Under the pieces are notes generated by a model. The model saw nothing but the letters and a program-made list of their open reading frames with translations, had not been told where the DNA came from and made no database searches. From a virus, in the IMG/VR virus record IMGVR_UViG_3300013126_000014, positions 1 to 64,000 of that record: 64,000 bases of DNA. One strand, written 5' to 3'. Position 1 is the stretch's first letter. Each line of letters starts with the position of its first letter. Positions 7,427-55,107 of this stretch are shown in pieces. The position numbers and the translations under genes were made by a program.

Positions 7427-9273
7427 TATTTTTTAACTTCGCCTAACATATCTTCATATGCTTTCCAAAGTGTTTCTTCCTTAACTGCTAATGGATTAGC
7501 TGCTTTGTTAGCTGTAGCAGGATCTTGTTTTTTGCTACGATTGAGATCTGTACCGCTCGGAACAACTGCATCTACTCCTGCTACTTTTTCTCGCGGCGTG
7601 TTTAAATGTTCAATATCTCGTTCTTCTTCTAATTCTGCTTGTGGCTGTTCTTGCGGAACGGTATTGTCAGTAGGTTGAACTGTCTCTTCTTGTCTATGTT
7701 GAATTCCTGCCAATAGTTGCATCAATGTCACTGCGTCTAAATCATCAGCAGTAAAACTGATGTTAGCATTGATCATTTCGTCTAATTTTTCTTGTGCTTC
7801 TTTAACCGTATATTTCTTACCGTCTACTTCAAATTCTTTAGCACCACTTGCACGTGCCTGTGCTAGTGCTCCTGAGAATTCGTTACCTTCACCCATTTCT
7901 TCTTCTTCAAGATCCATAGTGTCGGGACTTTCTTCTACATTTATTTCGTTGTATACTTCTGTTTCTTCTACTGGTATTCCTGCTAGGCGGGCAATTTCAT
8001 CCAATTCTTGATCTATTCCGCCAACAAATGAATTTTCTGGTGCGTTACACTCTGCGATTTCTTGACAGTAGTGACTGTATGATGTAGCCACATCGCCAAT
8101 AAAGTCCTCGTCAGTCATAATAATATTGCGAGCACGATTTGGTTCAATACCTTGTGCTACCATTTCTTGACGCACTGCTGTCACAAAACTTGAATCAGCT
8201 GTGTTTAGTGTAGGATTCTTTTCAGCTAGAGCTTTACCTACTTTTTCGTAGAAGTAATCTGTTTCTTCCATAACACGGCTTTCTTTAACCATTGCTGGTT
8301 TAGCTTTCTTCATGTTAGGAGCAGAGTTTTTAATTTTACCAGCGTCTTTAAATTCAACGCCTTCTTCTACTTGGCCTTTGTTGTGTGCTTTCCATGCTGT
8401 AGCATAAGCAATACCTTTTTCACGTTTAGTCAGAGCGCCGTCTTTAGCATAGCCTTTCTTAATATGTTTAACCATACGTTCAGCTTTAGCGCCTGGAGGT
8501 GCTACTTCGGCAACTTTCTTATCTAGCATTGGGTGATTAGGATCTGTTTTAGCAAGATGTGCTTGGAAGCTGTCATAGTCTTTACCGGCTTTCTTTGATG
8601 CAGCCACACTTTTTGCTTTTGCTGAATGCTTTTTAAGATCTATTTGTGATTTAGCGATATTGCCCTCATCCAAGTCATCTACTTCTGGACTATCTTTCTG
8701 TGCAGCGCCACCGTAGGCTTTACCAGCAACTTTACGGATTGGCGTGTTACGCTCATCGCGATAACCTTGTTCGTCTTCTTGACGATCTTTAATAGCCTGT
8801 AGACGTTTACGTTTAGCAATAGCATCAGCATCTGGTGCAGCTGGCTCATCGTATTTGCCTTCATCTACTTCGTCATCGCCTTCATCGTTAAAAGCAATCA
8901 TTTCAGCATCATCAGGATCCATGCCTTGTTTAATAAGTTCATGATAGCGATCTAACTTGGCCTCATCACTCATACCCTCGCCTAGTTTCTTGCCTGCGGC
9001 AGCGGCTTTTTGGAATTCGGCTTTACCGTATTTTTTACGGCCAATGGCAGCGGCTACAGCTTCTGGATCTTCAGCACTACCACCTTTCTTAACTGCGGCT
9101 ACTGTTTTCTTAAAGCCCATGTATTTTTCTTCTAAACTTTTTACAGCTTCAGTAATACTACCGCGTGATTCTACGCTTTCGTATACTGGTTCAGTAGTTG
9201 CATTTTCGGTTGGTTTTGTAACTCCTAAAACAGAGCCAATCTTGCCCAAAATATCATAAATGTTGTTGCTCAT
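7426..9273 (-). CDS. Glu/Lys/Ala-rich protein, probable prohead-processed internal protein
   Basis: 615 aa, low-complexity modules separated by LGE/VDE/LDE/VAE/VEE sites; contains IARLAGI. Confidence 0.6.
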   Translation of the reverse strand: MSNNIYDILGKIGSVLGVTKPTENATTEPVYESVESRGSITEAVKSLEEKYMGFKKTVAAVKKGGSAEDPEAVAAAIGRKKYGKAEFQKAAAAGKKLGEGMSDEAKLDRYHELIKQGMDPDDAEMIAFNDEGDDEVDEGKYDEPAAPDADAIAKRKRLQAIKDRQEDEQGYRDERNTPIRKVAGKAYGGAAQKDSPEVDDLDEGNIAKSQIDLKKHSAKAKSVAASKKAGKDYDSFQAHLAKTDPNHPMLDKKVAEVAPPGAKAERMVKHIKKGYAKDGALTKREKGIAYATAWKAHNKGQVEEGVEFKDAGKIKNSAPNMKKAKPAMVKESRVMEETDYFYEKVGKALAEKNPTLNTADSSFVTAVRQEMVAQGIEPNRARNIIMTDEDFIGDVATSYSHYCQEIAECNAPENSFVGGIDQELDEIARLAGIPVEETEVYNEINVEESPDTMDLEEEEMGEGNEFSGALAQARASGAKEFEVDGKKYTVKEAQEKLDEMINANISFTADDLDAVTLMQLLAGIQHRQEETVQPTDNTVPQEQPQAELEEERDIEHLNTPREKVAGVDAVVPSGTDLNRSKKQDPATANKAANPLAVKEETLWKAYEDMLGEVKK

Positions 9274-37442: not shown

Positions 37443-38099
37443 TTAGTTGTTACTAATAACTACACTTACATCTTCTTCAGCAGTATCTAATGTCCAAACA
37501 ACGTGTTGGTCTTCAACGAATTGAGTACCCGTTGCAGGCAATAGGCATGCTGTACGGCTTTCTAGTTTCTTAACATAGTAAGTACCGCCATCACTATCTG
37601 TTGCTGTCATACGGCACTCACCTGCTGCGGGCGAACTAGTTACTAATTTAACTTTACCTGTGCCTTGTGCATTTTGAACTTTGTAACGACGTGCACCTAC
37701 TTGTTTAACAATATCACTAGCTACTGCACTTGAACCACCGTCATCAGCTGACAAGTATGCTGAAACTGTAATAGCGTCTTGTACGCTTGATGTTAGTGTA
37801 ATGTTTGCCACGATAGCCGGACTTGCGTTGGCACCAGTAACTGTCGCTGTAGGTGCAGACGTATAGCCAGAACCCGCAGATGTAATTACTACTGCTGTTA
37901 CATTACCACTACCATCTAATGTTAATGTACCCGTTGCTGTTGAACCACCTGTAATTTGTGGTGCAGTAAATGTAACAGCAGCATTAGCTGAATAGTACCC
38001 TTCACCCGCAACGTAAACGTTAGCAGTTGATACACCTTCACCGCCTACACCGTCGGTGTTACGATTACCAAAATAAACTGATTTAATTGGACGTCCCAT
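37443..38099 (-). CDS. probable abundant virion structural/decoration protein
   Basis: 218 aa; strong RBS AAGGAG, own late box and terminator; V.ITSAGSGYTSAPT.T repeat motif. Confidence 0.65.
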   Translation of the reverse strand: MGRPIKSVYFGNRNTDGVGGEGVSTANVYVAGEGYYSANAAVTFTAPQITGGSTATGTLTLDGSGNVTAVVITSAGSGYTSAPTATVTGANASPAIVANITLTSSVQDAITVSAYLSADDGGSSAVASDIVKQVGARRYKVQNAQGTGKVKLVTSSPAAGECRMTATDSDGGTYYVKKLESRTACLLPATGTQFVEDQHVVWTLDTAEEDVSVVISNN

Positions 38100-38124
38100 T
38101 TGTTTTCTCCTTATATAATTGTTC

Positions 38125-38170
38125 TACAATCTACGCGGTGGGTGCCGCATAAACCCTTGCGGGCATTGTA
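38125..38170 (-). promoter_or_regulatory. three-way-junction RNA leader
   Basis: TACAAT/ATTGTA closing stem enclosing CCC-GCAA-GGG and TATGCGG-CACCCA-CCGCGTA hairpins. Confidence 0.55.
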
Positions 38171-38788: not shown

Positions 38789-38862
38789 GCGCTTATAGTT
38801 TAATGGCAAAACAAGAGGCTCTAACCCTCTACTTCTGAGTTCAATCCTCAGTAAGCGCACCA
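38789..38862 (+). tRNA. amber suppressor tRNA, anticodon CUA
   Basis: Acceptor GCGCTTA/TAAGCGC, discriminator A, encoded CCA; D arm GTTT-AATGGCA-AAAC; anticodon arm AGAGG-CTCTAAC-CCTCT (CTA at 38821-38823); T arm CTGAG-TTCAATC-CTCAG. Confidence 0.92.
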
Positions 38863-38865
38863 AGT

Positions 38866-38941
38866 GAGCGTGTAGCAGAGTGTCACATGCGTTAGGCCGC
38901 AAGCCTAAAGAGGAAGGGTTAAAATCCATCTGCGCTCTCCA
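38866..38941 (+). tRNA. degenerate tRNA-Cys(GCA)-like gene
   Basis: Acceptor GAGCGTG/TGCGCTC with U73 and CCA; anticodon arm TTAGG-CCGCAAG-CCTAA; but C33, no GG in the D loop, TTAAAAT T loop and a mismatched T stem. Confidence 0.55.
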
Positions 38942-50076: not shown

Positions 50077-50310
50077 ATGGAAATCTTAACAAAAGTGAAA
50101 AGTTGGGCAAATGCCCTTGCAGATGCGTTAGTTAGCGTTTTGGCCCTAGCTATCGTTCTAGAAGTATTGTTCAAGGGAGCAGCTGTCCCATTTCTACCAG
50201 CAACAGATGTAATTGGTTCAGTTACAGCAATCATTAAAACACTAGGTGGTGAAGGTGTTGTTGGGTTAGTAGCTTTATGGGTACTATATTCAATTTGGAA
50301 GAACAAATAA
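50077..50310 (+). CDS. small membrane protein (two hydrophobic segments)
   Basis: 77 aa; late box 50023-50028, RBS TAGGAG and own terminator. Confidence 0.8.
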   Translation: MEILTKVKSWANALADALVSVLALAIVLEVLFKGAAVPFLPATDVIGSVTAIIKTLGGEGVVGLVALWVLYSIWKNK

Positions 50311-50334
50311 TTTAATTGTTTTTTGATTTCAAGA

Positions 50335-50365
50335 AAGGGCATAGTTAACTCTATGCTCTTTTTTA
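50335..50365 (+). terminator. rho-independent terminator
   Basis: AAGGGCATAG-TTAACT-CTATGCTCTT followed by a T run. Confidence 0.8.
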
Positions 50366-50379
50366 TTCTCTACTGCTTT

Positions 50380-50830
50380 AAGATGTCTACGACATCTGCG
50401 TTATCGCTATCGCTCAACGCTTTTTTTCTAATTTAAGATTACTCTAAATTATTTTGATTTATTGTAAGTCTTTAAGTGCTTCATCTAGATTTGGTCATAC
50501 TTCACCTATCCGCAGGCAAAGTATGAGACAGGACTTCATCTGAGTCGACAGTCATACTAACTAAAGGAGATTGTTTCACAACACGGAGGCGGTCATCCGG
50601 TACCCCCTACTCCAGCTTCAAAATGACGGGTGCTGTATAGCCGTAGTTAGCCAACTATACGAGTCACGTAGGTTGTATCTTTTTCACAGAGCCTACATCT
50701 TTCGGCTTTTATGCCTAATTGATTTTACGTCAATGCCATTCAGTGTGTAGTCTACTCTACACGTTCCATGTGCGGCCATTACGCGAGCACAATCACCTCT
50801 GAATACAGTTTAAACTGCGATTGCGGCTGT
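50380..50830 (-). ncRNA. putative large structured non-coding RNA (or structured DNA element)
   Basis: About 450 nt without a credible ORF, containing at least nine inverted repeats. Strand inferred from G-U pairs and the upstream gene. Confidence 0.55.
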
Positions 50831-50831
50831 T

Positions 50832-51269
50832 TTACTTCTTTATTACTAAATCTTTTACGGAATTTTTGCCTAGTTTGATTTGAATGATGCCATTATAGTT
50901 GTTTTCACGTAGTAGCACATCTTCTTTAAATTGATAATATGCTTCTAAATAATTTGTTTCACCACGTGAGCTACACAAATGTATGATTTCGCGAGTAAAC
51001 TTGTCTTTGCCATGAGTGTCGATATCAGCCTGTAGTCTTGGACTAGATCCCCAGTAGGTCTTCCAATCTGTTTCTACCGTTTCACGACGTTTGTTTTTCT
51101 TGCCTTTTAGAGGTGGTCTCTTTTTGATCGTGGTAAAATATTTGCGGCCAATATAGTCATGACCATTTAGTGTGTTTGTAATTCTATAGATGAAACCATA
51201 ATAAGTGCCGATATCCTCAGACTCAAATGCTACACCGTTATAAGTCCAAGGATGATCGTATGATGCCAT
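50832..51269 (-). CDS. stand-alone GIY-YIG nuclease domain protein
   Basis: GFIYRITN..NG..YIGRK, DWKTYWGSS, F.REII.LC, YLE, YNG.I; no DNA-binding tail. Confidence 0.85.
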   Translation of the reverse strand: MASYDHPWTYNGVAFESEDIGTYYGFIYRITNTLNGHDYIGRKYFTTIKKRPPLKGKKNKRRETVETDWKTYWGSSPRLQADIDTHGKDKFTREIIHLCSSRGETNYLEAYYQFKEDVLLRENNYNGIIQIKLGKNSVKDLVIKK

Positions 51270-51277
51270 AATGCTAT

Positions 51278-51469
51278 TTATTTTGCTGCCTTAGCTGCAT
51301 TCTTCTTTTCTTGAATTTCTGCACGTCTTGCTTTAGTTAGTTTACCTAAGTCACCTAGCGCACCGCGAGCACGTGTACCTGCTGCGCCTACACCTTTGCC
51401 TTCAAATTTTTCATTTTCTGCTAGGTATGCTTCATATGCTGCTACAATTTGTTCATGTGTTGTTGCCAT
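51278..51469 (-). CDS. small basic histone H1-like (Hc1-type) DNA-binding protein
   Basis: KF..KG..AAGTRAR.AL..L.KL.KARRAEIQE.KN pattern. Confidence 0.7.
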   Translation of the reverse strand: MATTHEQIVAAYEAYLAENEKFEGKGVGAAGTRARGALGDLGKLTKARRAEIQEKKNAAKAAK

Positions 51470-52245: not shown

Positions 52246-53342
52246 AAATTCTGATCCCACACTTTAGTTAATTTTGTGCCGCATGTCATAGCACACTCAA
52301 ATATACGTCCTTCTGCTAAACTCTTAGACCAACTATCTGTTACGTGTTGCCAAAATGGATTATTAAAAATTTCTTCTAAAGTTCTGTTATTGATGTTTAA
52401 ATTTTCTTTTCCGTAAAAGTCTACAATACTTTGTATTTGATTGCGACCATTAGATAAACTCAATCGATTGGCTCCAGGTAAACTACCGTCGTGGAATCTA
52501 GCATCATAAAGATTGTGTGTAAAGAAATTACAAGGCAATACTAACCCTTCTGCGCTGATAATTACTTTACGACCTAATAGAGCATCGCAACGTATTTTGG
52601 TAGCGTTAAAATACTCCTCTACGTCTGTGTATTCTTTCTTAAGCTCTACTAACTTTAACATACTACGGTTTCGAAATGCTAGATTTTTTGGAGGTCTTAG
52701 TTCGTATCCCGGCGCAGGCCAGCTGGGCATCTCTTCAACGGCAGTGTGATTAAAAAATCTACCTGTACTTCTTGGTAAGAAACTTTCAAAGCCCATGTCA
52801 ACACTTAGTTGTCGTGCTTCTTCAACTTGATGTTCATTATGCTCGAATACAATAAAATTCCACTGTGCTTTACCTCCGGCACGTATAAATGCCTGTGCAT
52901 TTTCTATCACACGATCAAAATTTACATTTCTGCGATACAGATGATTGGTGTCAGATAGACCATCGATGCCAAAATCTATCTTACCGTAACCATTTAAAAC
53001 TTGTGCTAATTCTGTCCACCATTCTGTGTTTCTGATTCCGCCATTGGTATGTATGTACAGCCAAACAGTGGGGGATTTTTTTCGAAAATCTTTGAGGATA
53101 TCTAAGAATTTGTGATGTGCAATTGGATCACCATAACTACCACAAAAGAATATCTGTCTTAGTCGACATACTAGCTCCTTAGGAAATGCGCGATCTATAA
53201 TACTTTGATCAATGCTAGTTAAGGGCATGTAAGGATTTACCCCCTTGCCAAGATTGTTACGGGGGCATTGAGGACAAGCAGCGTTACATAAACTTGTAAT
53301 CTCAATTTGATACTCGTCTATGATATTATAATCAAACAACAT
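52242..53342 (-). CDS. radical SAM protein with C-terminal Cys-rich (SPASM/twitch-like) region
   Basis: CNAACPQC (CxxxCxxC), CGSYGDP, HTNGG, FGIDG, LPC, CAMTCG. Confidence 0.9.
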   Translation of the reverse strand: MLFDYNIIDEYQIEITSLCNAACPQCPRNNLGKGVNPYMPLTSIDQSIIDRAFPKELVCRLRQIFFCGSYGDPIAHHKFLDILKDFRKKSPTVWLYIHTNGGIRNTEWWTELAQVLNGYGKIDFGIDGLSDTNHLYRRNVNFDRVIENAQAFIRAGGKAQWNFIVFEHNEHQVEEARQLSVDMGFESFLPRSTGRFFNHTAVEEMPSWPAPGYELRPPKNLAFRNRSMLKLVELKKEYTDVEEYFNATKIRCDALLGRKVIISAEGLVLPCNFFTHNLYDARFHDGSLPGANRLSLSNGRNQIQSIVDFYGKENLNINNRTLEEIFNNPFWQHVTDSWSKSLAEGRIFECAMTCGTKLTKVWDQNL

Positions 53343-55107
53343 CTACGTCCGTGTTATAGGTAGTGAACCCGTTTTCTTTAACTACCGTAAGGATATTATT
53401 TACACGCCCTGCTAGTTCATCTTTGTGGCTAACTAACCATACACTCTTGTTGTTGTCACGGGTCATTTTCTTAAGAATAGCCAGTGCGTTTTCTACCCCG
53501 CTGCTATCCATGCCACTATCAACTAATTCGTCAATGAATAACAAATTAATAGGTTGATATAAACTTTCCCACACATCACGGAATGCCCACGACAGTGAAA
53601 GAATAAGTCGATTGCGCTCACCACGCGATAGATTATCAAAATCTAGTTCGCGTCCTAGTTCTTGTATTTCTACATTTAGGTCATTTAAGAATTTAACTTC
53701 ATGCGGTAATCCAATTTTTTCTAAGTAATAGCTTAGTCGAGCATTTAAGTAACTTAAATTTTGGTCAATGATACGTTTACGTATATAACTGTCTTTATTC
53801 GTAAGCAACTTGTATAAGAATTCTTGGTGTTCGCGTACACGCACTAACTCGTTCATAGTAGTGTAGTCAATTTCAGCAAGGGCTGTGTCTTTCATTTCTT
53901 CAATCTGTTCAGTATAAGGATCTGTTTCGATACGCTTTGCTTCTAGTTGTGTTTGCAAACTAGCTACAGTTGAGCGATGATGAATGGCGTCTTCTTCTTG
54001 GTCGTAAAACACCTTAGGTTGTTGGCCTAGCTCACCTAATTCTTTAAGAGCGTCGTTGTTCTGTATTAATTGAGTTTGTGTGCTCATGTACTGTAACGCG
54101 GCTTCTTTTAATGCTTCTTCTTTGGACTGTAAAACTTCTTCGTGTTTAGTGTCGTGCATAGTTTGACCACAGGCGTAACACTTGTGTTCTTTAAGATCGG
54201 CAAGTTCTGTCTCTAATTTAGTAATTGCTTTTTCTTCTTTAATCATATCCTGTTCGCAGCGCAAGATATATTTCTTTAACTCGTCAATGTCTTTGCGCTT
54301 TTGGTTATATGTAGTTAATGCTTTGTGCGCAGAAATTTCACTATCAATATCAATATGCGATAATTCGTTTATAGCTGTTTCTAGTCTAGCAACATCTTCG
54401 GTATGTTTATTGCGCCACATGGTCTGTCTACGTTCTAAACTAACAATTTGCTCTTTGATACGCTCGTTAGCTTCCTGAATTGCTTTAATTTTGTATTCTT
54501 CAGCGGTAATAGCATCACGACTTGCTTTTTGTTGTTCTTTTAATGCTTCTGCTTTTTCACTTAGTAATGTAATACCAAGTAACTGCTCAATGATAGCACG
54601 CTGGTCACCTGATTTTAAACTTAAGAACGGTTCAGTATAGGTGTTAAGTGCCACAATGTGTTTAAACATATCATGCGTCATGCCCAACAAACGTTCAATT
54701 TCGGCTTGTGTTTCGCGACTGTCGCCCTGACTATTGTCGTCTTTTGATTCTTGTTCGATATCGCCAATATAAAACTTCATTACATTTGACTTGCGACCGC
54801 GCTCAATTTTATAGTCAATACCATTAACTTCAAATTCAATAGTAACTAACATATTTTTGCCGTTAGTTTTATTAATCAAATTATCTTTGCGTATGTTGGT
54901 TAATGCATTACCGTACAAGGCATATGATAGTGCATTAATGATAGTAGTTTTGCCAGTACCATTGCGTGCACCGCTATCATCTCCACCTAGATCGATGTTC
55001 TCACCCAAAACTAATGTTAGATCTTTACGATCAAAGTTAACGGCCTGTGTAGCATTACCTACACTCATAAAATTGCGAACTGTAAGATGTTTTATTTTAA
55101 AACTCAT
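53332..55107 (-). CDS. gp46: recombination exonuclease ATPase subunit (gp46/SbcC/Rad50-like)
   Basis: NGTGKTT Walker A, coiled coil with CYAC zinc hook, LSRGE signature, LFIDE Walker B, VSH. Confidence 0.95.
   Translation of the reverse strand: MSFKIKHLTVRNFMSVGNATQAVNFDRKDLTLVLGENIDLGGDDSGARNGTGKTTIINALSYALYGNALTNIRKDNLINKTNGKNMLVTIEFEVNGIDYKIERGRKSNVMKFYIGDIEQESKDDNSQGDSRETQAEIERLLGMTHDMFKHIVALNTYTEPFLSLKSGDQRAIIEQLLGITLLSEKAEALKEQQKASRDAITAEEYKIKAIQEANERIKEQIVSLERRQTMWRNKHTEDVARLETAINELSHIDIDSEISAHKALTTYNQKRKDIDELKKYILRCEQDMIKEEKAITKLETELADLKEHKCYACGQTMHDTKHEEVLQSKEEALKEAALQYMSTQTQLIQNNDALKELGELGQQPKVFYDQEEDAIHHRSTVASLQTQLEAKRIETDPYTEQIEEMKDTALAEIDYTTMNELVRVREHQEFLYKLLTNKDSYIRKRIIDQNLSYLNARLSYYLEKIGLPHEVKFLNDLNVEIQELGRELDFDNLSRGERNRLILSLSWAFRDVWESLYQPINLLFIDELVDSGMDSSGVENALAILKKMTRDNNKSVWLVSHKDELAGRVNNILTVVKENGFTTYNTDVDVV

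What the first reader, a model, noticed from the sequence alone, without database searches (positions are those of the whole stretch)
50380..51280. Stand-alone GIY-YIG domain followed immediately by a ~450-nt highly structured non-coding tract
Seen: the longest ORF-free stretch in the window starts at the stop of a 145 aa GIY-YIG protein lacking a DNA-binding tail, with no terminator between. Minus-strand helices include CAGTT/AACTG, GTGC/GCAC, GTGTAG/CTACAC (50745-50762), ATTGA/TCAAT, GTAGG/CCTAC (about 50668-50696), nested GTATAG..TAGTT/AACTA..CTATAC (about 50635-50660), GGAG/CTCC, a 13-bp TCATACTTTGCCT/AGGTGAAGTATGA stem (about 50495-50526), then GCGTT/AACGC and AGATGTC/GACATCT. AGATGAAG occurs twice, on either side of the long stem. 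Inference: a large ncRNA co-transcribed with, and perhaps bound by, a minimal nuclease (candidate RNP or RNA-guided nuclease). Alternatives are a ribozyme/intron remnant or a replication/packaging element. I do not recognise the family.
Basis: partly seen in the sequence, partly recalled or inferred. Interest (0 to 1): 0.8.

Follow-up and report, generated by a model that had tools for sequence, protein, structure and literature searches.

The report
Twin-box structured RNA behind phage nuclease
The gene-free stretch behind a small nuclease gene of this uncultured giant lake phage encodes a real, doubly knotted non-coding RNA of about 450-490 bases that carries one 7-letter word twice, always identical, and it looks like an RNA gene in its own right rather than a guide for the nuclease; its job is unknown.

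Summary
Observation confirmed. Window 50343-50831 is the longest ORF-free stretch (489 nt). It follows a 145-aa stand-alone GIY-YIG gene.

The minus strand encodes a structured RNA. My 93-pair model is 93.4% paired in 38 relatives, against 84.1% in shuffles and 36-45% when slid; 39 pairs show compensatory change. Two pseudoknots are supported.

Two 7-letter words (50541-50535 and 50486-50480) flank a 13-bp hairpin. They are identical in 105 of 105 copies, and all 8 letter combinations occur. This is unexplained.

The RNA-guided-nuclease reading is not supported:
- Some relatives carry a PD-(D/E)xK nuclease or an extra gene in front of the RNA.
- A 250-kb relative has the RNA but no such GIY-YIG.
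- Cultured phages have the GIY-YIG without the RNA.
- Box letters do not track the protein.

Rfam has no match for the window. The 5' third of relative L095 matches Polynucleobacter-1. A core relative with its own promoter sits in E. coli jumbo phage UB.

This scan has reported the same 'twin-box RNA' before on other DNA. Function unknown; my best guess is a bivalent docking RNA.

The parts
50832..51269 (-). 145-aa stand-alone GIY-YIG nuclease gene (Pfam SegE_GIY-YIG, PHROG phrog_447). It is a neighbour of the RNA, not shown to be its partner.
   Evidence: homologues in 762 cultured phage records
50381..50828 (-). Structured non-coding RNA ('twin-box RNA'), from helix P1 to helix P16. The transcript probably runs on to the terminator at about 50339.
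   Evidence: 93-pair model, 93.4% of cells paired, 39 pairs with changes on both sides. RNAalifold alone gives 75 pairs, 31 compensatory. G.U pairs kept in 34-38 of 38 rows name the minus strand. No codon periodicity.
50735..50827 (-). 5' domain. P1 is 50827-50825 with 50737-50735. P1a is 50818-50815 with 50808-50805. P2 is 50804-50799 with 50743-50738. P3 is 50791-50787 with 50773-50769. P4 is 50762-50757 with 50750-50745. This domain differs between subgroups of the family.
   Evidence: P2 has 5 of 6, P3 4 of 5 and P4 5 of 6 pairs compensatory, at 97-100% paired. RF01718 does not match here.
50668..50696 (-). P7 hairpin (GTAGG/CCTAC) with a conserved purine-rich loop.
   Evidence: 89.9% paired, 4 of 5 pairs compensatory
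50635..50660 (-). P8, a 9-bp hairpin. Its loop (50650-50644) forms pseudoknot PK2 with 50563-50557.
   Evidence: P8: 95.6% paired, 6 of 9 pairs compensatory. PK2: 93.7% paired against 68.7% in shuffles, 6 of 7 pairs compensatory. Alignment-free check: 64 of 67.
50566..50627 (-). Invariant core. Pseudoknot PK1 pairs 50627-50623 with 50596-50592. The three-way junction has P10 (50613-50610 with 50569-50566), P11 (50607-50603 with 50589-50585) and P12 (50582-50580 with 50575-50573, GUGA loop).
   Evidence: PK1 91% paired with CG/UA and AU/GC swaps; P10 and P11 100% paired.
50534..50545 (-). Box 1 (ACTCAGATGAAG); the variable 7-letter word is 50541-50535.
50495..50526 (-). P14, the 13-bp hairpin between the two boxes.
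   Evidence: 99.2% paired; 7 of 13 pairs compensatory
50479..50490 (-). Box 2 (ATCTAGATGAAG); the variable 7-letter word is 50486-50480, always the same as in box 1.
   Evidence: identical in 105 of 105 copies, all 8 combinations seen; mutual information 1.0, 1.06 and 0.93 bit between twin positions.
50421..50478 (-). A/U-rich linker, variable in length and sequence.
   Evidence: alignments
50381..50420 (-). P15 (50420-50416 with 50402-50398), capped by tandem G.A pairs, a GC/GC step and a GNNA loop (GAGCGATAGCGA). It is followed directly by hairpin P16 (50397-50391 with 50387-50381).
   Evidence: P15 99.4% and P16 100% paired, with compensatory pairs in both
50339..50356 (.). Terminator-like hairpin shared by the two converging gene blocks. 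It has an A-run on one side and a T-run on the other.
   Evidence: (sequence)

Best explanation
Shown here:
- Window 50381-50828 (minus strand) is a gene for a large, independently folding non-coding RNA of the 'twin-box' family of uncultured giant T4-like lake phages.
- It has about 18 helices and two pseudoknots.
- An invariant three-way-junction core is followed by a 13-bp hairpin flanked by two copies of one 7-letter word.

Inferred:
- In this phage it is made as the tail of the gp46...GIY-YIG transcript and ends at the shared terminator.
- The nuclease gene is only a syntenic neighbour. It probably fills a DNA-branch-cutting (resolvase-type) slot next to the recombination genes.

Most likely mechanism (inferred, not shown): the rigid knotted core holds the two identical words side by side at the foot of the hairpin, so the RNA grips two copies of one partner. 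The partner could be a dimeric protein or a sequence that occurs twice. Because both words change together in every lineage, the words are read base by base, or a homology-dependent step links them.
For: Structure:
- Full-length model: 93.4% paired against 84.1% in shuffles, 39 of 93 pairs compensatory, 0 of 500 shuffles as good.
- Core in 67 diverse copies: 84.3% against 72.7%.
- PK1 is 91% paired. PK2 is 93.7% paired against 68.7%.
- Invariant G.U pairs name the strand.
- Not coding.

Twin words:
- Identical in 105 of 105 unique copies, with all 8 combinations seen. Rare variants (GATCAA, GACGAA, GTCGAA) are also the same in both boxes.
- No other strong covarying partner in the RNA.

Independence from the nuclease:
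- PDDEXK_15 gene in place of the GIY-YIG gene in 10 of 157 loci; other genes inserted in 22 loci.
- RNA without GIY-YIG in G002 and G001.
- GIY-YIG without RNA in Melnitz and P-HM1.
- Mosaic L001.
- Box letters are not tied to the protein.

Relative in culture:
- E. coli phage UB holds a core relative (29.9 bits, E 1e-4) in an unannotated 570-nt gap with a TGTGATATAAT promoter-like site and a terminator.
- One of UB's four copies lies between an endonuclease VII gene and the baseplate hub beside gp46, the same neighbourhood as here.
Against: - No transcript was seen. No listed run is surely RNA.
- The partner of the boxes is unknown. No complement of the word lies in the RNA or in 883 kb of flanks of relatives: own word 67 antisense hits against 72 expected.
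- Minimum-energy folds do not place the boxes consistently in loops: 34 and 30 of 108.
- Adjacency to a GIY-YIG gene holds in most loci even where the protein is only 33-42% identical. A functional link is therefore not excluded.
- The resolvase role of the nuclease slot is inferred from family names (phrog_244 'RusA-like', 'DNA endonuclease VII' in UB), not tested.
- UB-type RNAs share only the core, not the boxes, so they may not share the function.
Confidence: 0.6

Rival explanations
1. The RNA is the partner of the adjacent GIY-YIG nuclease. It would be an RNA-protein complex in which the RNA supplies the missing DNA-binding or targeting function, with the boxes perhaps docking a nuclease dimer or acting as guides.
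For: - The nuclease lacks a DNA-binding tail.
- A GIY-YIG gene sits directly upstream of the RNA in most of 157 loci, down to 33% protein identity.
- Two identical words would suit a dimer.
Against: - The RNA occurs with a PDDEXK_15 gene instead, and in a 250-kb record without any SegE-type GIY-YIG.
- The 148-aa GIY-YIG family is widespread in cultured phages. The two genomes tested lack the RNA.
- Recombination separates the two genes (L001).
- Normalised mutual information of box letters with GIY-YIG columns is 0.27-0.42, against 0.50-0.84 for control RNA sites.
- The UB relative has its own promoter.
Confidence: 0.05
2. The nuclease genes are selfish or exchangeable cassettes that settle next to a very conserved RNA gene, as T4 seg genes sit beside tRNA or core genes. 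The association would reflect the RNA gene being a landing site or cleavage target, not a partner.
For: - Three unrelated nuclease families occupy the slot beside the RNA: GIY-YIG, PDDEXK_15, and endonuclease VII in UB.
- Extra genes come and go at the same junction.
- Mosaic identity lies across the junction.
Against: - The GIY-YIG gene is present in 147 of 157 loci and intact, not sporadic.
- It has no DNA-binding domain of the Seg type.
- The same family sits elsewhere in cultured phages without the RNA.
Confidence: 0.12
3. Origin-primer RNA. The transcript folds, stays hybridised to its template as an R-loop and primes DNA replication, as ColE1 RNA II and the T4 oriF/oriG transcripts do (recalled knowledge). 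Several copies per jumbo genome would then be several origins.
For: - It lies beside the baseplate-hub genes, where T4 has oriF near uvsY/25/26 (recalled).
- UB has four copies, each outside annotated genes.
Against: - Nothing here tests it.
- An R-loop primer does not need two pseudoknots, an invariant junction or twin words.
- The window's genome record holds one copy.
Confidence: 0.1
4. Self-processing or copy-template RNA. The two identical words would be two equivalent sites for one homology-dependent step. That step could be cleavage and ligation that excises or circularises the roughly 55-nt hairpin unit, or a polymerase jumping from one box to the other to copy the unit repeatedly.
For: - Strict identity of two direct repeats that are otherwise free to vary is what homology-dependent steps require.
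- The hairpin brings the boxes together.
Against: - No known ribozyme family matches.
- No reverse transcriptase is seen nearby (not searched genome-wide).
- No variants with 0 or 2 units were seen among 115 copies.
- The distance between the boxes varies.
Confidence: 0.08
5. A cis-acting 3' untranslated region that merely stabilises or regulates the nuclease operon mRNA.
For: It directly follows the last gene of the operon, with no promoter of its own seen in this phage.
Against: - It is more conserved than the protein upstream: the core is identical where the protein is 33-42% identical.
- It is kept behind four or more different upstream genes.
- It is far larger and more intricate than known 3'-end stabilisers.
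- The UB relative is a separate transcription unit.
Confidence: 0.05

Closest known systems
Polynucleobacter-1 RNA motif (Rfam RF01718). Weinberg et al. 2010, PMC2864571: I saw only its table row, 'Burkholderiales, fresh water/estuary'.
   Same: The 141-position model matches the 5' third of family member L095 above Rfam's threshold (39.2 against 37 bits). L095 shares with the window the exact 31-nt core pattern, and it has twin boxes that agree in their variant GACGAA core. The topology is also alike: a closing helix around two hairpins.
   Different: The window's own 5' domain gives no RF01718 match at E up to 10. The Rfam model covers none of the core, pseudoknots, boxes or 3' hairpins. RF01718 matched 1 of 15 relatives scanned.
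GOLLD and ROOL, large ornate RNAs often carried by phages (Rfam; cryo-EM preprint 10.1101/2024.12.08.627333, seen as search listing and start of abstract only).
   Same: A several-hundred-nt, multi-helix, pseudoknotted RNA of unknown function, encoded by phages and found first in lake metagenomes.
   Different: No sequence or structure match to either Rfam model. It is smaller and not next to tRNA genes here. Oligomer formation was not tested. Twin identical words are not a described feature of those RNAs (recalled).
Unannotated ~450-nt RNA of Asteriusvirus-type jumbo phages (E. coli phages UB, 121Q, PBECO4 and others).
   Same: It shares the PK1 and three-way-junction core: 29.9 bits, E 1e-4 over the whole 353-kb genome. 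PK1 is kept by compensatory change between two UB copies, GTCAT/ATGAC against GTTGC/GCAAC. One copy lies beside gp46, a nuclease gene and the baseplate hub.
   Different: It has no twin boxes and no 13-bp hairpin. The core sits at the 3' end. It has its own promoter-like site, and UB has four copies. Model R1 does not detect the syntenic copy. Homologues occur in 62 cultured records.
Guide RNAs of transposon-encoded nucleases (OMEGA systems: IscB, IsrB and TnpB with their omega/reRNAs). Recalled; review PMC13565253 seen as a listing only.
   Same: A large structured RNA encoded directly beside a small nuclease gene.
   Different: The nuclease here is GIY-YIG, not RuvC/HNH. The RNA also occurs with other nucleases and without this one. 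No terminal variable guide segment and no transposon ends were seen. No Rfam HEARO-type match.
Free-standing T4 Seg homing endonucleases (SegE and others; recalled).
   Same: The protein matches Pfam SegE_GIY-YIG.
   Different: It has only the catalytic domain (145 aa; phrog_447 profile 148). It is present in 147 of 157 loci rather than sporadically.

Membership tests
Polynucleobacter-1 RNA (Rfam RF01718) | Match to the Rfam covariance model at or above 37 bits | tested here: not met
   Window: no match at gathering score or at E up to 10. Relative L095: 39.2 bits.
Twin-box phage RNA (this scan's working name; no public family) | Invariant core pattern GAGTAGGGNGTACNGGNNNACCGCNTCCGTG with three-way junction P10/P11/P12 | tested here: met
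   Window 50612-50582. Model R1 scores 135.2 bits. Pairs are 100% kept.
Twin-box phage RNA (this scan's working name; no public family) | Two pseudoknots (PK1: upstream strand with the P11 loop; PK2: P8 loop with the strand after P10) | tested here: met
PK1 91% paired. PK2 93.7% paired, 6 of 7 pairs compensatory.
Twin-box phage RNA (this scan's working name; no public family) | Two copies of one 7-letter word on either side of a long hairpin, identical within each genome | tested here: met
   Window AGATGAA at 50541-50535 and 50486-50480. Identical in 105 of 105 copies.
GOLLD / ROOL / other Rfam large RNAs, group I and II introns, RNase P, tmRNA | Match to the family's Rfam model; for tmRNA and tRNA also ARAGORN | tested here: not met
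   No match in 50380-50831. ARAGORN finds nothing there.
RNA-guided nuclease system (OMEGA/CRISPR-like) | RNA and nuclease strictly co-occur | tested here: not met
RNA-guided nuclease system (OMEGA/CRISPR-like) | A guide segment that varies freely while the scaffold is conserved, matching targets elsewhere | tested here: inconclusive
   The box words vary freely, but no complement was found in the RNA, in the flanks of relatives or with the extended motif in the window. Complete genomes of relatives were not available.
RNA-guided nuclease system (OMEGA/CRISPR-like) | Physical binding of RNA and nuclease | not testable with these tools
   The complex predictor takes proteins only. No job was sent.
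Stand-alone GIY-YIG family phrog_447 / Pfam PF19835 | Full-length profile match and GIY...YIG motifs | tested here: met
   PF19835 E 3.8e-38. phrog_447 E 2.6e-41 over 3-136. YGFIY...DYIG is read.
Seg-type homing endonuclease | C-terminal DNA-binding domain and sporadic occurrence | tested here: not met
   The 145 aa are all catalytic domain. The gene is present in 147 of 157 loci.

The most novel reading that the evidence does not exclude
The two identical 7-letter words are programmable recognition words. The knotted RNA would present them as twin seeds that base-pair with a sequence occurring twice (in phage or host nucleic acid), or as homology arms for a jump or excision step. The family would then be a natural, bivalent, sequence-programmable RNA device of giant phages. 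An effector, possibly the neighbouring branch-cutting nuclease, could be steered by it.
Probability: 0.1. Interest if true: 0.9.

Novelty: new variant of a known kind. Interest (0 to 1): 0.65.

Why it matters
Large, intricately folded RNAs without a known job are rare, and past examples such as ribozymes, riboswitches and RNA cages opened new biology.

This one is common in giant T4-like lake phages. It is more conserved than the proteins around it.

It shows a feature I know from no described RNA: two words that are free to change but must stay identical to each other.

Public catalogues hold only a 141-nt piece of one subgroup (RF01718). A 2023 survey of IMG/VR reported candidates of 29-151 nt only (PMC10690425, passages seen; supplements closed), so at most pieces of this RNA could be listed there.

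A core relative in culturable E. coli jumbo phages (UB, 121Q, PBECO4) makes at least the core open to experiment.

The result also warns against reading 'small nuclease next to big RNA' as an RNA-guided system without co-occurrence tests.

Tried and rejected
1. Decayed C-terminal half of the nuclease or a hidden ORF. Rejected: stops in all three minus-strand frames, no codon periodicity (p 0.83 and 0.88), and the window's opposite-strand ORF 50571-50750 stays open in only 10 of 67 relatives.

2. blastn of 50300-51300 against cultured phages: no match.

3. Genome-wide meaning of AGATGAAG. It occurs 10 times in the window against 1.5 expected, but the other 8 sites are GAT-GAA codons inside genes. 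Rejected as a signal.

4. A complement of the box word. None was found at a consistent place in the RNA. In 883 kb of relatives' flanks the own word gave 107 sense and 67 antisense hits, against 93 and 72 per other word.

5. Alternative pairing of GTATGA (50557-50552) with TCATAC, a possible switch. Only 60.3% paired, and slid controls reach 55%. Weak.

6. RNAalifold's helix of GGC (50737-50735) with GYC (50627-50625). Set aside in favour of P1 and PK1, which have compensatory changes.

7. Bacterial copies. The core pattern gave 0 hits in 185,579 species genomes. A looser Polynucleobacter-1-type pattern gave 44 hits in unrelated taxa. By my own arithmetic about 200 are expected by chance, and none matched model R1.

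8. Pseudomonas phage PA5oct and Agrobacterium phage Atu_ph07: no hit with R1. The Melnitz 15-bit hit lies inside the gp46 gene.

9. Expression. No RNA holder is listed. The three 'RNA?' runs are probably DNA. One contig of X10 covers 50386-50799 only. I draw nothing from this.

10. Minimum-energy folds of the box region are inconsistent.

11. Papers. Searches found no description of this RNA. PMC9602691 (passages seen) was irrelevant. Supplements of PMC10690425 and of Weinberg 2010 could not be seen and may list pieces of it.

12. I sent no protein fold, homologue-database or complex jobs. The claims do not rest on them.
Full report
**What is there.**
- The window comes from a 117,787-bp virus record, about one third of a giant phage genome by CheckV's estimate.
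- Its nearest cultured relatives by the gp46 protein are jumbo phages: PA5oct 52%, Atu_ph07 44%, and E. coli UB/PBECO4-type about 42%.
- On the minus strand a gene run ends with gp46 (53332-55107), a radical-SAM gene, a short-chain dehydrogenase-like gene, two small genes (one Hc1-like) and a 145-aa GIY-YIG gene at 50832-51269.
- Plus-strand baseplate genes converge on it and end at 50310.
- Between the two blocks lies the longest ORF-free stretch of the window, 50343-50831. Its G+C content is 46-47.5%, against about 30-40% around it.
- The only terminator-like hairpin is at 50356-50339.

**Is it an RNA?**
- The thermodynamic fold of the single sequence is only mildly unusual (z -2.6 on either strand).
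- Relatives decide the matter. The GIY-YIG protein found 206 related places in IMG/VR, of which 80 were kept. The non-coding tract is conserved behind nearly all of them at 69-85% identity.
- From 110 unique copies, mutual information picked out many Watson-Crick covarying pairs.
- On tool-made alignments my hand-built model holds up:
  - In 38 full-length copies, 93 pairs are 93.4% paired. Shuffles give 84.1% (0 of 500 as high) and slid partners 36-45%. Changes on both sides occur in 39 pairs and 325 cells.
  - RNAalifold on its own predicted 75 pairs, 31 of them compensatory.
  - In 67 more diverse copies of the core, 84.3% of cells pair against 72.7%.
- Invariant G.U pairs (38, 38, 36 and 34 of 38 rows at four positions) would be A.C mismatches on the other strand. 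The RNA is therefore the minus strand, the strand of the nuclease gene.
- Variable columns show no codon phase (p 0.83 and 0.88). The window's opposite-strand ORF survives in 10 of 67 relatives.

**Anatomy (window coordinates, 5' to 3' on the minus strand).**
- P1 (50827/50735) closes a 5' domain of P1a, P2, P3 and P4.
- Small hairpins P5 and P6 follow.
- P7 (50696/50668) has a conserved purine-rich loop.
- P8 (50660/50635) has a loop that pairs with 50563-50557 (pseudoknot PK2). PK2 is 93.7% paired, with 6 of 7 pairs compensatory. An alignment-free check finds a complement of 6 nt or more in 64 of 67 copies, with more than 20 different sequences.
- The strand 50627-50623 pairs with the loop of P11 (pseudoknot PK1), with swaps GTCAT/ATGAC, GTCAG/CTGAC, GTTGA/TCAAC and GTTGC/GCAAC.
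- The invariant three-way junction is P10/P11/P12.
- Box 1 is at 50545-50534, the 13-bp hairpin P14 at 50526/50495, and box 2 at 50490-50479.
- An A/U-rich variable linker comes next.
- P15 carries a GA/GC/GNNA cap, and P16 follows it directly.

**The twin boxes.**
- The 7-letter word R-G-A-U-R'-A-W varies at three positions.
- In 105 of 105 unique copies that have both boxes, the letters are the same in box 1 and box 2. All 8 combinations occur, 5 to 21 times each.
- Ten of 115 copies did not fit my pattern. The variants I could read by eye are again the same in both boxes.
- Mutual information between twin positions is 1.0, 1.06 and 0.93 bit. No other column comes close.
- Watson-Crick pairing between the boxes does not explain this. 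The best-pairing mixed combination (A in box 1, G in box 2) never occurs; this is my reading.
- A complement inside the RNA or nearby does not explain it either.
- An alternative pairing of the GTATGA that precedes both boxes is weak.
- I have no tested explanation. Identity of two otherwise free sequences points to one reader acting on both, or to a homology-dependent step.

**Is the nuclease its partner?**
- I examined 157 loci with at least 1.3 kb upstream. They are not de-duplicated, because fetched some contigs twice.
- A GIY-YIG gene is present in 147 of them. It is usually the last gene before the RNA, and the protein ranges from 33% to 98% identity.
- In 10 loci a 167-184-aa PDDEXK_15 protein (PF24608; phrog_244 'RusA-like Holliday junction resolvase') takes its place.
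- In 22 loci another gene lies between the GIY-YIG gene and the RNA. Most often it is a 263-277-aa protein of no PHROG family. In 3 further loci only an unassigned gap of about 1 kb lies there.
- Records G002 (250 kb, 71% complete; RNA 133 bits) and G001 give no SegE-type GIY-YIG match, while the own record does.
- Conversely, the protein belongs to a 148-position stand-alone family (phrog_447, misnamed 'NAD synthetase') with homologues in 762 cultured phage records. Whole genomes of Methylophilales phage Melnitz and Prochlorococcus phage P-HM1 have no RNA match. The one 15-bit hit lies inside gp46.
- L001 combines a 98% identical protein with a 72% identical RNA.
- Box letters are less associated with GIY-YIG residues than three control RNA sites are.
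- The RNA starts close behind whichever gene is upstream. In this clade it is probably made by read-through and then processed; this is inferred.

**Leads from earlier notes of this scan.** The same RNA was reported more than ten times on other DNA as a 'twin-box RNA'. I tested the leads.
- Polynucleobacter-1. RF01718 matches the 5' third of relative L095 at 39.2 bits, but it does not match this window's 5' domain.
- Cultured jumbo phages.
  - My 162-position core model finds a 29.9-bit match (E 1e-4) in E. coli phage UB. It lies in an unannotated 570-nt gap that has a promoter-like TGTGATATAAT and a terminator.
  - UB has four copies, and 62 cultured records hold the UB-type RNA.
  - One UB copy lies between an endonuclease VII gene and the baseplate hub, next to gp46. 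That is the same neighbourhood as here, with a third kind of nuclease.
  - The UB RNAs share only the PK1/junction core, not the boxes.
- Bacterial islands: not reproduced.
- A third pseudoknot: not found.

**Verdict.**
- The RNA is real, and apart from a partial Rfam motif in one subgroup it is undescribed in print as far as my three searches show. A 2023 survey could list at most pieces of 151 nt or less (supplements closed).
- The RNA-guided-nuclease reading is unlikely (about 5%).
- The nuclease slot is best read as an exchangeable DNA-branch-cutting function beside the recombination genes (inferred).
- What the RNA does is open. I commit, at modest confidence, to a bivalent docking role of the twin boxes on a rigid knotted scaffold.

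Noticed in passing
window 38789-38862 (+), 38866-38938 (+), 38097-38163 (-): A tRNA with anticodon CUA, which would read the amber stop (ARAGORN calls it tRNA-Pyl). A second, weaker tRNA match (32 bits) follows it. An Rfam freshwater-2 RNA (52 bits) lies just upstream on the other strand.
   Followed up: no
window 51278-51469 (-): A 63-aa protein matching the chlamydial histone-like Hc1 family (PF07432, E 4.5e-10) sits just upstream of the GIY-YIG gene. It is kept in 92 ORFs among the 157 related loci (cluster 3).
   Followed up: no
L011:3446-4258 and 15 other loci: A 263-277-aa protein with no PHROG match is inserted between the GIY-YIG gene and the RNA in some relatives. The RNA still starts right after its stop codon.
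   Followed up: partly
L208 (E. coli phage UB, MH383160.1) 7650-8487; L211 2813-3385: Unannotated gaps of about 570-840 nt in a cultured E. coli jumbo phage hold paralogous ~450-nt RNA-like elements with promoter-like and terminator-like sites. UB has four copies, and 62 cultured records (Escherichia, Salmonella, Erwinia, Yersinia, Serratia and others) hold homologues, mostly with no annotation.
   Followed up: partly
L001 against the window: Sharp mosaic: the GIY-YIG protein is 98% identical but the RNA directly behind it only 72% identical. A recombination breakpoint therefore lies at the gene/RNA junction.
   Followed up: partly
window 50386-50799: In one wastewater run labelled RNA-Seq (probably DNA), a 413-nt contig of a relative covers just the RNA stretch. 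Its depth is 23, against 4-13 for neighbouring contigs. This is not usable as evidence of expression.
   Followed up: no
window 50796-50803 (minus strand GAGGTGAT; GAGGAGAT in most relatives): The invariant single-stranded GAGGWGAT of the 5' domain is complementary to the differing 5' halves of the two boxes (CUC of box 1, AUCU of box 2). One relative (L099) shows a matching double change, but the window and several others show a mismatch. It could be a third long-range contact and is unresolved.
   Followed up: partly
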